A stretch of 64,000 nt of DNA from Euglena gracilis (taxonomy: Eukaryota). Positions 40,601 through 43,600 of the stretch are shown here, piece after piece; the first letter of the stretch is position 1, and each line of letters starts with the position of its first letter. A program made the position numbers and the translations under genes. The stretch lies in NCBI GenBank assembly GCA_039621445.1, contig CP154954.1:8558634-8622633 (forward strand). Direction: 5' to 3'. The notes beneath the pieces are model-generated. The model made no database searches. It was not told the DNA's origin and saw only the letters and a list, made by a program, of their open reading frames with translations.

Positions 40601-43600
40601 TCCTTGTAGTGAGGAAAGGTGATTCACCCCGTGGTTATTCTCAAACGTCAAAATCGGCAAAACCCGCCAACATGCCCGCAAACACTTACCGTCTCCCTTG
40701 CCCTCCCCACAAAAGGGGGCCCCCCGCGGACGGCGGCGGATTTCCCCAGCGCGGCGCAGTACAAGGCGTTCTTCGACAGTCCGCAGGTGCACATGTCGAA
40801 GTTCCCCAAGATGGCGGATTTGGAGAAGGAGGCGAAGAAGGGTGGGGAGAACATCCTGCAGAGGGCTCGGTCGCACCCCAGCGCTCCTCGTCGAACCTCT
40901 GTAGCACCACAGTCCAGATACCCCCCCCCCAATAATACCAAATCGTTTGCCCCCAAATTTAAAGCCAGCTGGCTTTATATATGAGTGGGATTTGAAGACC
41001 GTCCGGGGGTTTTTTGGGGGATTAAAATTTTCTGGGTGACGTACATAAAATTTGGATACTCGGGGTTGTATTATTTGGGGGGGGGGATTATTTCCGACCC
41101 TCCCTTTTAAAGGCGGGAAATTGTCACGTGGGTGGAATGCACTTGACAAATTTTTGGGTGACAACTTGCCTGGGGGGTGGGTGGGTGTGGCTCACTTGTC
41201 CAAACACAAGCTGCAAGGATGGTGATTGAGTCAAGGACTGAATGATTGAGTGGGAGGCAGCCATCCGTAGGCCCCTTCACGCCTCGCATGCTTCCCACCC
41301 TGCGACCTGGTCAGCCTCGCTGTTGCAAGCCCAAACCCCGCCTGGCGAATCCCTCTGCCAATGCACGAGGCTGCTCCCGGCCCTCCCCCCGAAACGCCTG
41401 GAACGGGTGATCCGCTTCGACCTCCCAAAGCTGCTGCAGCCACTGCGCAGGGCCGCCACCGGCACTGGCACTTGGTGGGAGACCACCATGGGGAGATTTC
41501 CAAAGCGTTTAGTCATTGAACCATGTCTTAAGCGTGTGATAGACACATCCCCCCCCCACCACAGCCTCCCGAAGCTGTATCCCATGCTCCTGCGCGCTTA
41601 CCTGGTGACAACTTTCGAGCACAGTGTTATAGTTGTGCGCAGTGTCCAAAATAATAACCTCCAAGTCCACACCCCATCGCAACATCGGTTGCAATGCCAG
41701 TTTTTTCAAATCTCCCAGCATCACACAAGAAGTTTTGAATTGATCTGTTGCCAGAAATGGAAGAAGAAGGCGGCTATTTTTGATTTGTGATTGTGAACGC
41801 TCACCCACTGCGGTCCGAAACGACCCTTTTAAACATTTTTTTTGATGGTGGTGGAGGTTTTCTGTAACAAGCAATGTTCTTTTCCAGTCCCTTCTTTTTA
41901 CAATAATTTTTTTTACAATCTACCTATGTATAAATATAATTCGGGCAGCCGAATTTGGGTCATTATAGTTGCAGGTTTGCATGCAATGAAACTTTACTGA
42001 ATTTAATCTCATGGAACGTGGTAGATGGATGACAGGCCCCGTGGCACGTGTCCCTTCCTTCCAGACCCCCACCCTGGGGCCCTGCCCGCGGCCCAGGCCG
42101 CTGCGGTGGACCCCCGCAAGGCGCGGAAGGAGAAGCAGGGGCAGAACAACGCCCCGCCGGACAAGCACCTATGAAATGACTGACGGCTGTGACTGGGATT
42201 GACCGGGTGTGACCGGGACCGGGTGTGACTGAGCGTGACCGGGGGCATGACCGGGTGTGACTGGGCGTGACCGGGTCTGGGACTGGGTCCAGGATTTGGA
42301 TGACCATAGGTGCTTGCCGCCGGACAAGGCCGTCTTCCTCGACCGCCTCGCAGCCTCCCAGATCCCCCACCCCGCCCACCCCCCAGCGGCCCCCGGGCCA
42401 GCCACCTCCAGCAACGCCGCCCAGCCAGGTGCCAAGGTCGCCGGGGGAAGTGATATTTGCCTCTGCGGGTCGGAGATTGAGGTTGGCAAGTGTCGCCCAA
42501 TTTGATGATGGGGCGGTGCCTAATTTGATGATGGGGCGGGGTGCCTGATTTCTTGATGGGGCAGTGCCTAATTTGGTGATGGGGCAGTGCCTATTTTGAT
42601 GATGAGGGGGGTGATACCTAATTTGGGCAGCAGGAGGCAGCAAGCGGGTTCCCAGGTTCCCAGTTGTCCACACCACACTGAAGCCTTGTGGACGGTTTCT
42701 AGTTGATGGCTCCTTCAACCGCACAGTTCATTCCCAACTAAGATTCTTGACCAAGGATCTGATTTGAGCCACCAAATTGCTCGGTGGTGTCTTTGAAACC
42801 TGATTTGACAGTGGTGGCGTTCCTTAGTGGCTGAGCTGGCAGATGAGTCCGCTGAAGCACGCCAACTTTCCACCCAGGTCCATTTTTGAATTTTTCGCTC
42901 CATTTCACCCAGGAAACACGGCAAAATCCTGCAACTTTTGTTGGATTAGGGGAGGGTGTGTCTTATTAATAGGAATCAGATTAGGGTTGCAGCCCTCGTT
43001 CAGGGAAAAAGTTAGGCCAGAAGTCAGGTACCAATTTCGGAAGATTTTTGGGAGCACACGATGCCTCCAAATTCATCCTCAATTCAGCTCAACTTGGTCC
43101 GAAATGGGGCCTAACTTCTTCCTAAACCACGAAAGATGGGAGCCCTTTGGCAGTTGAATTGCAACCCTAACCCTGTCCCCCGAATAACCCGAAACCTTCG
43201 CAGCATGGGACCAGGGTGGAATTTTCGGACCCTCCCCCCCTGGAGGAACTACAGGGACCCCCGGGGGGGGGCTACCATATATACTACCATATATACATAC
43301 CATATATATATATATATATATACATACATAAGTCATCTTCATATTCATATATACATGTACACCTATATACACATATAAACATTCATACATATACAGCTAT
43401 GTTTACGTTTATACATAATATGCGTATTTTCATGCATGTATGCATATAATTGTGCATATGGTACCCATATTGAGGCGTGTCCCGGGTGGGGTACCCCACG
43501 CCGTCCTCCCCACCTGGCCTCTGCCGCCATACAACCCCCGCCAGCCCGGCTCCCGCCCCGCCCCACCCGCCCCAGGCTGTCGCCCCCCCGGCCCCCCGGC

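What the first reader, a model, noticed from the sequence alone, without database searches (positions are those of the whole stretch)
42154..42324. An intact MITE is a complete nonconventional intron (candidate hAT-like introner)
Seen: within the EHD reading frame the sequence reads CCGCCGGA-[CAAGCACCTATG...CATAGGTGCTTG]-CCGCCGGA, a 155-bp element with perfect 12-bp TIRs and a perfect 8-bp duplication. The element introduces in-frame stops and has no suitable GT-AG pair at its ends. Cutting 3 nt before the left TIR and 5 nt after the right TIR (42159-42321) is the same geometry as the other introns of this gene. It removes the element plus exactly one TSD and restores ...[14 protein letters not shown]... 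Known: 8-bp TSDs with short CA...TG TIRs typify hAT elements; euglenid nonconventional introns pair positions +4..+6 with -8..-6; a MITE origin for these introns has been proposed in general terms. Inference: this is a very recent intron gain by transposition, with scarless splicing.
Basis: partly seen in the sequence, partly recalled or inferred. Interest (0 to 1): 0.95.

Follow-up and report, generated by a model that had tools for sequence, protein, structure and literature searches.

The report
Transposon copy acting as Euglena intron
A small, freshly inserted mobile DNA element sits inside the protein-coding part of a Euglena gene and has the shape that this organism's unusual second splicing system removes, which makes it a concrete candidate for how such introns are born.

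Summary
A 155-bp element (42162-42316) has perfect 12-bp terminal inverted repeats and a perfect 8-bp flanking duplication. It belongs to a repeat family with a second, 899-bp copy at 872-1770.

It lies inside a coding exon of a Euglena gracilis EHD-like ATPase gene. Homologues align without a gap across the upstream intron, up to eight codons before the insertion. Their Pro-rich C-terminal tails match exons that are expressed downstream of the element.

Removing 163 nt is the only in-frame path from the conserved domain to that tail. One of 13 equivalent cuts (42159-42321) has the geometry of euglenid nonconventional introns: a 3-nt spacer, a stem, a 5-nt spacer and an exon starting with a purine.

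RNA contig depths rule out retention of the element in most transcripts and fit precise removal. The junction itself was not shown by my single read-laying run, so splicing is inferred (about 0.78).

Two points are weak. The stem starts CAA/TTG, not the published CDG/CH'G motif. "hAT-like" rests only on the 8-bp duplication.

A MITE origin for these introns has been proposed in print since 2014. A named family member with intact ends acting as an intron appears unreported.

The parts
42162..42316 (.). 155-bp non-coding element with terminal inverted repeats (MITE-like), copy A
   Evidence: Similarity to copy B starts and ends exactly here. There is no codon-position GC periodicity, and there are stops in all three + frames.
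42162..42173 (+). Left terminal inverted repeat, CAAGCACCTATG
   Evidence: pair I1: 12 nt, 100% complementary.
42305..42316 (+). Right terminal inverted repeat, CATAGGTGCTTG
   Evidence: pair I1.
42154..42161 (.). Left copy of the 8-bp target-site duplication, CCGCCGGA
   Evidence: D5; 8 of 8.
42317..42324 (.). Right copy of the 8-bp duplication. The next 4 nt (CAAG, 42325-28) extend the repeat to 12 nt by coincidence with the start of the terminal repeat.
   Evidence: (D5).
42184..42276 (.). Internal direct repeats with a 10-bp period (GTGACYGGG-like); similar motifs occur near both ends of copy B
   Evidence: period 10, 9.5 copies.
42172..42174 (+). In-frame TGA brought in by the element
   Evidence: ORF 42025..42174 ends ...DKHL*.
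42159..42321 (+). Predicted nonconventional intron, 163 nt (the element plus one duplication copy). It is the one cut of 13 equivalent cuts that has the 3-nt spacer, the stem and the 5-nt spacer.
   Evidence: 12-bp stem at +4/-6 only for this cut. (the terminal stem appears in both the MFE and the centroid fold). Removal from RNA is inferred depths, not seen directly.
42090..42158 (+). Coding exon 16, part a ([24 protein letters not shown])
   Evidence: Aligns to homologue P0003 residues 400-414, directly after exon 15, which aligns to 382-399. Codon-position GC is 0.77/0.50/0.95, the pattern of the known CDS. The X15 depth fits 43 nt at depth 113 in bin 41780-42132.
42322..42426 (+). Coding exon 16, part b ([35 protein letters not shown]). 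The 3' end is inferred.
   Evidence: Open frame. Codon-position GC is 0.76/0.62/0.91. A junction at 42426|43527 is in frame and fits the start of the contig piece. No sequence similarity to homologues.
41445..42089 (+). Intron 15, nonconventional, fits the published code (GCG-CAGGGCC ... GGCCCTG-CCCGC|G)
   Evidence: 7-bp stem. Gap-free colinear alignment to P0003. Depth arithmetic (18 nt x 113 = 2034, against 2033 observed).
31845..41444 (+). Exons 1-15 of the EHD-like dynamin-family ATPase gene (14 introns: 12 nonconventional, 2 GT-AG)
   Evidence: P0002 (eukprot EG_transcript_14648) maps at 100% identity in 15 blocks.
43527..43724 (+). Exon 17, part of the Pro-rich tail, expressed
   Evidence: X15 record 7 (347-nt contig, depth 21.4). 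Its other 120 nt are accounted for by 51 nt near 44393-44444 and 69 nt in 44604-44956.
872..1770 (.). Second family member (copy B, 899 bp), with a foldback-like interior
   Evidence: Its flanks are CCTTCCCC and CCCCCCCC (6 of 8).

Best explanation
A non-autonomous DNA transposon with terminal inverted repeats inserted, with an 8-bp duplication, into coding exon 16 of a Euglena gracilis EHD-like ATPase gene. The insertion point lies between the conserved ...[11 protein letters not shown] block and the Pro-rich C-terminal tail.

In the pre-mRNA the two 12-nt terminal repeats pair. That stem, together with 3 nt on its 5' side and 5 nt on its 3' side, is the substrate of the euglenid nonconventional (non-GT-AG, probably non-spliceosomal) splicing pathway.

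Because 3 + 5 = 8, the length of the duplication, the pathway removes the element plus exactly one duplication copy (163 nt). This recreates the pre-insertion mRNA.

Shown:
- the anatomy of the element;
- its membership of a repeat family;
- its position in coding sequence;
- its fit to the geometry of the gene's other nonconventional introns;
- that the element is not retained in most transcripts, and that downstream tail exons are expressed.

Inferred:
- the exact 163-nt junction in RNA;
- the transposition mechanism and superfamily;
- that the insertion is recent.
For: Anatomy and family. In DNA run X2 the summed contig depth at 42272 is 36,530, against about 150-200 for single-copy flanks. 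Other contigs join 42179 to 42243 or 42248 with different interiors, so further family members exist. This is a rough indicator, not a copy number.

Coding context: P0002 maps at 100% identity to 15 exons. The five closest homologues are 501-678 aa long and extend 108-289 aa beyond the stretch that matches P0002. All five carry the A.DPR block. The tails of P0003, P0004, P0006 and P0007 are rich in Pro, Gln or Tyr; P0005's tail is Arg/Ser/Pro-rich. Window 41392-41445 aligns to P0003 382-399 and window 42091-42135 to P0003 400-414, with no gap. Both flanks of the element show the GC3 > GC1 > GC2 pattern of the known CDS, in frames offset by +1. The element shows no such pattern.

Geometry: all 13 other nonconventional introns of the gene have a stem of 3-8 bp starting at +4/-6, and in 13 of 13 the acceptor-side exon starts with a purine. 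For the element, exactly 1 of 13 equivalent cuts gives this geometry, with a 12-bp stem, N3 = GGA, N5 = CCGCC and an exon starting with G. The spacer lengths 3 and 5-6 and the purine were shown by knock-in experiments in E. gracilis (PMC12501133, sections 7-11 read). The fold shows the terminal stem.

RNA (my arithmetic on table 2): a correctly spliced 890-nt X15 contig (depth 113) runs 207 nt past exon 14. Bin sums reproduce exons 7, 8, 9, 10, 13 and 14 within about -1.5% to +4%. They also place exon 15 (54 nt) and 43 nt of exon 16a.
- Bin 42133-42485 sums to 14,226. Retention of the element at exon depth would need at least 33,000.
- The sum equals 110 x 113 + 29 x 21.4 + 31 x 38 = 14,229. 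That is the spliced model, with the contig ending at 42405.
- No X15 piece of 130 nt or more is listed at 42090-42242, although all eight listed X15 pieces are 129 nt or longer.
- At 42272, raw RNA runs X21 and X22 have 0 reads, and X15 has depth 38 against 113 on the exons.
- Tail exons downstream are expressed and spliced in frame (record 7).
Against: The joint 42158|42322 was not among the 15 of 136 joints displayed; DNA repeat joints crowded it out. Splicing therefore rests on depth arithmetic and on which pieces the tool chose to list.

The raw reads over the exon are few, about 2-3x.

The stem triplets are CAA/TTG, not CDG/CH'G. In PMC12501133 every single substitution in CAG or CTG abolished splicing. 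That code covers only 61.2% of E. agilis nonconventional introns, and 4 of the 13 nonconventional introns in this gene also lie outside it.

No database protein contains exon 16b or exon 17. Exon 16b has no similarity to homologues.

Depth drops from 113 (exons 4-16) to 21.4 (exon 17). The cause could be GC bias, or many transcripts could end near the element.

The older introns of this gene show no trace of a duplication (37 of 104 positions identical, against 17-36 in shifted controls).
Confidence: 0.78

Rival explanations
1. The insertion is simply a disruptive mutation. The element is not spliced; translation stops at the TGA at 42172, and transcripts end in or just after the element. The Pro-rich exons downstream would be leftovers, or would be expressed in some other way.
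For: Bin sums also fit the 890-nt contig running unspliced to about 42242. Depth falls five-fold from exons 4-16 (113) to exon 17 (21.4). The stem motif CAA/TTG lies outside the tested code (PMC12501133). P0002 and the protein databases lack the tail.
Against: A 153-nt unspliced piece would have ranked among the X15 pieces listed in table 8, and it is absent. The tail exons are transcribed and spliced in frame (record 7). There is no AG before 43527 to serve as a trans-splice acceptor. All five closest homologues extend past the conserved block, four with Pro-, Gln- or Tyr-rich tails. Exon 16b shows coding-type GC periodicity in exactly the frame that a 163-nt removal predicts.
Confidence: 0.1
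2. Transcripts that lack the element come from an allele or strain without the insertion (an insertion polymorphism), not from splicing.
For: Perfect ends suggest a recent insertion, which could still be segregating. The RNA runs come from other samples than the DNA run. Gain of a nonconventional intron within a species is documented (PMC4770533).
Against: In DNA run X2 a 914-nt contig (41294-42207) crosses the left junction unbroken, at depth 170.8. Single-copy neighbours have 152.8-197.7. No empty-site joint was displayed, though low-depth joints were not shown.
Confidence: 0.07
3. The element is removed by the ordinary spliceosome through cryptic sites, for example GT at 42106 and AG at 42327-28 (223 nt, also in frame).
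For: That pair keeps the frame (my reading).
Against: X15 depth needs about 43 nt of exon at depth 113 in 41780-42132; that model allows only 16 nt. None of the 13 cuts of 163 nt has GY-AG ends.
Confidence: 0.02
4. The 8-nt junction repeat arose through double-strand-break repair, as PMC4770533 proposed for gapC intron 4, and not through transposition.
For: That paper reads its 8-nt repeats in this way.
Against: The inserted DNA belongs to a repeat family. A second copy in the same window has the same ends at a different site, and the depth in genomic reads is high.
Confidence: 0.03

Closest known systems
Euglenid nonconventional introns, and the splicing code 5'-N3CDG-/-CH'GN5-6|R (Nomura et al. 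2025, PMC12501133, sections 5 and 7-12 read; Milanowski et al. 2014, PMC3935182, passages read)
   Same: No GT-AG ends. A stem that brings the intron ends together and starts at +4/-6. A 3-nt and a 5-nt spacer. A purine at the start of the next exon. Junctions that can slide because of direct repeats. The same gene holds 13 such introns.
   Different: The triplets are CAA/TTG instead of CDG/CH'G. The stem is a perfect 12-bp transposon end. The junction repeat is a full, perfect 8 bp (12 bp). The interior belongs to a repeat family.
gapC intron 4 of Euglena agilis strain ACOI 323 (Milanowski et al. 2016, PMC4770533, passages read)
   Same: A recently gained nonconventional intron with eight-nucleotide direct repeats at its junctions.
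   Different: That intron was explained by double-strand-break repair, and no repeat family was reported for it. Here the intron body is a family member with defined ends. Presence or absence among strains was not tested here.
Introners: transposon-derived introns in Micromonas and Aureococcus (Huff et al. 2016, known to me only through citations in PMC11282704 and PMC7789003) and in Amoebophrya (PMC7789003, passages read)
   Same: Non-autonomous elements with terminal repeats and a duplication that land in exons and are removed from RNA. The duplication supplies part of the junction. In Amoebophrya the splice sites are non-canonical and a hairpin joins the ends.
   Different: In Micromonas and Aureococcus the introners use canonical spliceosomal sites. 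Amoebophrya has direct repeats of 3-5 nt and no family-specific inverted-repeat motif was detected there. Here the duplication is 8 bp and removal would be by the euglenid nonconventional pathway.
hAT-superfamily MITEs (features recalled, not from a call)
   Same: An 8-bp duplication, short terminal repeats starting with CA, direct repeats near the ends, no coding capacity.
   Different: The end CAAGC matches the recalled YARNG consensus at 4 of 5 positions. The duplication CCGCCGGA does not fit the recalled nTnnnnAn pattern. No transposase was found. Other superfamilies (P, Merlin, Mutator) can also give about 8 bp.

Membership tests
Euglenid nonconventional intron | No GT/GC-AG borders | tested here: met
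   None of the 13 equivalent 163-nt cuts has GY-AG ends.
Euglenid nonconventional intron | A 3-nt spacer before the 5' stem arm and a 5-6-nt spacer after the 3' arm | tested here: met
   The cut 42159-42321 has N3 = GGA and N5 = CCGCC. The rule comes from PMC12501133, section 8.
Euglenid nonconventional intron | Base pairing of the intron ends beyond the triplet | tested here: met
   A perfect 12-bp stem, present in both the MFE and the centroid fold.
Euglenid nonconventional intron | CDG / CH'G triplets at +4..+6 and -8..-6 | tested here: not met
   The triplets are CAA / TTG: the first two pairs fit, and the third is A-U instead of G-C. This signature is present in only 61.2% of E. agilis nonconventional introns (PMC12501133, section 11) and in 9 of the 13 in this gene. 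It is therefore frequent rather than strictly defining.
Euglenid nonconventional intron | A purine at the first base of the downstream exon | tested here: met
   G at 42322. The gene's other nonconventional introns show this in 13 of 13 cases.
Euglenid nonconventional intron | Precise removal from mature mRNA | tested here: inconclusive
   the depths exclude retention in most transcripts and fit a 163-nt removal. The junction row was not displayed, and the raw reads are few.
Euglenid nonconventional intron | Excision as a full-length circular RNA | not testable with these tools
   This needs divergent-primer RT-PCR or back-splice reads. The feature is known to me from PMC11282704 and PMC12501133, which cite Guminska et al. 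2021.
MITE (non-autonomous DNA transposon with terminal inverted repeats) | Short, non-coding, with terminal inverted repeats | tested here: met
   155 bp, stops in all + frames, 12-bp perfect repeats.
MITE (non-autonomous DNA transposon with terminal inverted repeats) | A target-site duplication of fixed length | tested here: inconclusive
   Copy A has 8 of 8. Copy B has 6 of 8 in C-rich flanks. Only two copies could be read.
MITE (non-autonomous DNA transposon with terminal inverted repeats) | Many copies with shared ends | tested here: met
   Two copies in the window. In X2, depth at 42272 is about 230 times the single-copy level, and there are contigs with the same ends but other interiors. 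This is rough.
hAT superfamily | An 8-bp duplication | tested here: inconclusive
   Perfect in one copy and 6 of 8 in the other.
hAT superfamily | Terminal YARNG and the nTnnnnAn target pattern (recalled) | tested here: not met
   The end is CAAGC (4 of 5). The duplication is CCGCCGGA, with neither T at position 2 nor A at position 7.
hAT superfamily | A cognate hAT transposase with the same ends | not testable with these tools
   No genome is held for this window. Ten of the 26 ORFs of 230 aa or more in the window gave no Pfam hit.

The most novel reading that the evidence does not exclude
The fixed 3-nt and 5-nt spacers of the euglenid nonconventional splicing code are the footprint of an 8-bp-duplicating transposon family. 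On this reading the pathway exists (or arose) to cut out such elements plus one duplication copy at the RNA level, so every insertion with a suitable target 8-mer is born as a scarless intron. This family would still be creating introns in Euglena gracilis today.
Probability: 0.3. Interest if true: 0.9.

Novelty: new variant of a known kind. Interest (0 to 1): 0.74.

Why it matters
The origin of euglenid nonconventional introns is called unclear or a mystery in the papers I read. A MITE origin has been proposed since 2014 only from short inverted and direct repeats. The 2014 paper stated that no transposable element had then been identified in euglenids.

Here a single locus joins the two ideas. 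It is a family member with intact ends and an intact 8-bp duplication, inside conserved coding sequence, in the register that knock-in experiments showed to be required. It also suggests why the spacers are 3 and 5 nt: together they equal one duplication.

Three things become directly testable:
- RT-PCR at this locus.
- A genome-wide census of this family in exons.
- Insertion of this element into the published EgGSL2 assay, which would show whether a CAA/TTG stem is spliced.

My searches of the held library found no paper that describes such a family. Papers outside the library and the closed supplements could still hold one.

Tried and rejected
- Whole-genome search: no genome is held for this window. 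A copy census, empty sites and a transposase search were therefore impossible.
- Protein searches with exon 16b and exon 17 found nothing. The search with exon 14 found only P0001, which is an unspliced DNA contig, and P0002, which ends at 41418.
- The look-up of sequencing runs: no RNA holder was listed among the indexed runs. Rows with small shares were guessed to be RNA.
- Read laying: I included a DNA run. Its repeat joints filled the joint and loose-end tables (15 of 136 joints and 24 of 703 loose ends were shown), so the decisive junction was not displayed. The cap was one call.
- Metagenome and genome-collection scans for the left exon end and for the element's first 21 nt gave 0 matches.
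- The search of earlier findings returned nothing.
- A PDB search with a stop-to-stop ORF holding exon 7 gave no hit.
- Exon 16b against homologues gave no significant alignment.
- Traces of a duplication in the 13 older nonconventional introns: none.
- A 9-nt junction repeat at intron 43725-44392 and the intron 42427-43526 do not show the +4/-6 stem.
- Pfam on 10 of the 26 ORFs of 230 aa or more in the window gave no hit.
- The supplements of PMC12501133 and PMC11170887 (intron lists) were closed. They may list this intron or this family.
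Full report
**1. What is there**

At 42154-42324 the + strand reads CCGCCGGA, then a 155-bp element, then CCGCCGGA. The element begins CAAGCACCTATG and ends CATAGGTGCTTG.

The repeat finder gives a 12-nt, 100% complementary inverted pair (42162-73 and 42305-16). 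It also gives a direct repeat with a spacing of 163.

The direct repeat is in fact 12 nt (CCGCCGGACAAG). The four bases after the right duplication equal the first four of the terminal repeat. Thirteen different 163-nt cuts therefore give the same mRNA.

The interior is made of GTGACYGGG-like units with a 10-bp period. It has stops in all three forward frames and no codon-position GC pattern.

**2. It is a mobile-element family, not chance**

I scanned the window for perfect inverted repeats of 10 bp or more whose 8-bp flanks match at 7 or more positions. The scan gave 201 raw hits, of which 199 are microsatellite or homopolymer artefacts.

The two others are this element (8 of 8) and a site inside intron 9. 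The intron 9 site is really a 16-bp terminal repeat with one mismatch. Twenty Markov shuffles gave 0 or 1 hit each.

A second copy lies at 872-1770 (899 bp). It shares the first 21 nt exactly and 19 of the last 20 nt, and it has the same repeat units near its ends. Its interior is foldback-like.

Similarity between the two copies starts and stops exactly at the ends of the terminal repeats. Copy B's flanks are CCTTCCCC and CCCCCCCC, a 6 of 8 match in C-rich DNA.

In genomic run X2 the summed contig depth at 42272 is 36,530, against about 150-200 on single-copy flanks. Contigs also join 42179 to 42243 or 42248 through other interiors. This points to many further copies, but the tool warns that such sums are not copy numbers.

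**3. The gene**

A search with exon 14 returned P0002 (eukprot EG_transcript_14648, 388 aa). It carries Pfam Dynamin_N and the EHD helical domain. The organism is therefore Euglena gracilis or something indistinguishable from it.

P0002 maps at 100% identity to 15 exon blocks on the + strand, 31845-41418. Of the 14 introns, two are GT-AG (i4, i5) and twelve are nonconventional.

P0002 stops at ...KRLERVIRF, well upstream of the finding.

A HMMER search of 1.84 billion representatives supplied that proof:
- The closest homologues (P0003 to P0007, 54-68% identical, 501-678 aa) extend 108-289 aa beyond the stretch that matches P0002.
- All five carry a conserved block ([15 protein letters not shown] in P0003).
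- In P0003, P0004, P0006 and P0007 a Pro-, Gln- or Tyr-rich tail follows the block. P0005's tail is Arg/Ser/Pro-rich.

Window 41392-41445 aligns to P0003 382-399, and window 42091-42135 aligns to P0003 400-414, with no gap. This fixes intron 15 at 41445-42089.

The element sits eight codons after the conserved block.

**4. Geometry**

In 13 of 13 the next exon starts with a purine.

Nine of the 13 fit the code defined by knock-in experiments in E. gracilis, 5'-N3CDG-/-CH'GN5-6|R. Introns i9, i12, i13 and i14 do not. The code comes from PMC12501133, of which I read sections 5 and 7-12. It covers 61.2% of E. agilis nonconventional introns.

For the element, exactly one of the 13 equivalent cuts (42159-42321) puts the 12-bp terminal repeat at +4/-6. 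That cut has N3 = GGA, N5 = CCGCC and G as the first exon base. The terminal stem appears in both the MFE and the centroid fold.

The 3 + 5 spacer nucleotides add up to one 8-bp duplication. That is why removal would leave no scar.

The triplets, however, are CAA/TTG, so the third pair is A-U rather than G-C. That case is not covered by the published tests, in which every single substitution in CAG or CTG abolished splicing.

**5. RNA evidence**

I laid two raw RNA runs (X21, X22), one run of RNA contigs (X15) and one DNA run (X2) on 34720-45300.

The joint and loose-end tables were filled by DNA repeat joints. The 42158|42322 joint was therefore not displayed, and the cap is one call. What follows is my arithmetic on the depth table.

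*The main contig.* An 890-nt X15 contig (depth 113) is a correctly spliced mRNA:
- Its 25 loose letters before 34802 are the end of exon 4.
- Positions 555-683 of the contig are exon 14.
- This leaves 207 nt downstream of exon 14.

*Validation.* Bin sums (353-nt bins) reproduce known exons at depth 113, within about -1.5% to +4%:

| Exon | Length (nt) | Expected | Observed |
|---|---|---|---|
| 7 | 51 | 5763 | 5895 |
| 8 | 78 | 8814 | 8684 |
| 9 | 75 | 8475 | 8543 |
| 10 | 34 | 3842 | 3989 |
| 13 | 44 | 4972 | 5083 |
| 14 | 129 | 14577 | 14791 |

*Downstream of exon 14.* The sums give 36 + 18 nt for exon 15 (18 x 113 = 2034, against 2033 observed). They give 43 nt of exon 16 before 42133 (4859 of 5295). 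This leaves 110 nt of the contig.

*The critical bin.* Bin 42133-42485 sums to 14,226.
- Retention of the element at exon depth would need at least 33,000, so retention is excluded for most transcripts.
- The sum equals 110 x 113 + 29 x 21.4 + 31 x 38 = 14,229.
- Those terms are: the contig spliced and ending at 42405; the 29 upstream letters of the next contig (record 7); and one 31-nt piece at depth 38 around 42272.
- An unspliced contig running to 42242 gives the same sum. But its 153-nt piece should then appear among the eight X15 pieces listed, all of which are 129 nt or longer, and it does not.

*Position 42272.* X21 and X22 have 0 reads there, while exon 16 is covered about 2-3 times.

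*Downstream exons.* Record 7 (347 nt, depth 21.4) shows exon 17 (43527-43724). Its other 120 letters are matched exactly by 51 nt at about 44393-44444 and 69 nt in 44604-44956. All three exons are in one Pro-rich frame.

A junction at 42426|43527 cannot slide, fits the start of the listed piece, and is in frame with exon 16b.

Codon-position GC is 0.57/0.37/0.88 in the known CDS. It is 0.77/0.50/0.95 left of the element and 0.76/0.62/0.91 right of it, in frames offset by +1.

*Conclusion.* The only in-frame route from the conserved domain to the expressed tail is the removal of 163 nt. I rate that at about 0.78.

**6. Against, and rivals**

The junction was not seen and the raw reads are few. 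Depth falls from 113 to 21.4 between exons 16 and 17.

The main rival holds that the insertion truncates the protein at TGA 42172 and that transcripts end in the element (0.10).

A second rival is that the short transcripts come from an allele without the element (0.07). In X2, however, a 914-nt contig crosses the left junction unbroken at depth 170.8, the single-copy level.

A cryptic GT(42106)...AG(42328) intron is excluded by the 43 nt of exon seen before 42133.

Double-strand-break repair is the explanation given in PMC4770533 for an 8-nt junction repeat in a recently gained E. agilis gapC intron. It does not explain a family member with defined ends.

The older introns of this gene show no trace of a duplication (37 of 104 positions identical, against 17-36 in shifted controls).

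**7. Classification**

It works like a euglenid nonconventional intron. It meets every tested feature except the CDG/CH'G triplet, which is frequent rather than universal.

It is a MITE by anatomy. 'hAT-like' is not established, for four reasons:
- Only the 8-bp length fits.
- The end is CAAGC.
- The duplication lacks the recalled hAT pattern.
- No transposase could be sought, because no genome is held. Ten of the 26 ORFs of 230 aa or more in the window gave no Pfam hit.

**8. Novelty**

A MITE origin for these introns is in print in three papers of which I read passages or sections: PMC3935182, PMC11282704 and PMC12501133.

PMC4770533 (passages read) reports 8-nt junction repeats in a recently gained nonconventional intron.

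My searches found no description of a concrete repeat family whose intact member is such an intron. They also found no statement that the 3 + 5 spacers equal the duplication.

Supplements were closed, and papers outside the library were not searched.

Noticed in passing
window 31845-44956 (+): The public protein model for this EHD-like gene (388 aa) looks truncated at its 3' end. Homologues and RNA contigs indicate further exons: 41391-41444 (extending the last mapped block), 42090-42426 minus the element, 43527-43724, about 44393-44444, and at least 69 nt in 44604-44956. These encode a Pro/Tyr-rich tail. No EH domain was seen.
   Followed up: partly
window 37002-37313: Nonconventional intron 9 has a 16-bp terminal inverted repeat with one mismatch (CCGG[C/A]GGAGGTGAGTT), placed exactly at +4/-6. 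It has no flanking duplication (3 of 8). It may be an older insertion of another MITE-like element.
   Followed up: partly
window 43718-43726 and 44386-44394: A perfect 9-nt direct repeat (CGATGTACC) brackets the 668-nt intron between exons 17 and 18. This intron shows neither GT-AG ends nor the +4/-6 stem in any of its 10 equivalent positions.
   Followed up: partly
window 37544-37896 and 38956-40014: Introns 10 and 11 hold very high-copy repeats rich in C-runs and G-runs. Summed DNA contig depth reaches 250,000-511,000, against about 160 for single-copy DNA, and there are many alternative joints. Similar CCCC...GGGG units recur at 46460-46900.
   Followed up: no
window 42495-42613: Five tandem copies of a 23-bp unit (GCCTAATTTGATGATGGGGCGGT) lie in the intron just downstream of the finding.
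   Followed up: no
window 872-1770: Copy B of the family has a foldback-like interior: TTTTGGCC-type units in the left half are mirrored by GGCCAAAA-type units in the right half (arms up to 45 nt, 73-88% complementary).
   Followed up: partly
window 42272: Most genomic contigs of the family carry T here (27,324 of 36,530 depth units in X2). The window copy carries C, and so does the only RNA-contig signal at this site (depth 38 in X15). That RNA piece may therefore come from this locus or from a C-type subfamily, for example as excised intron RNA.
   Followed up: no
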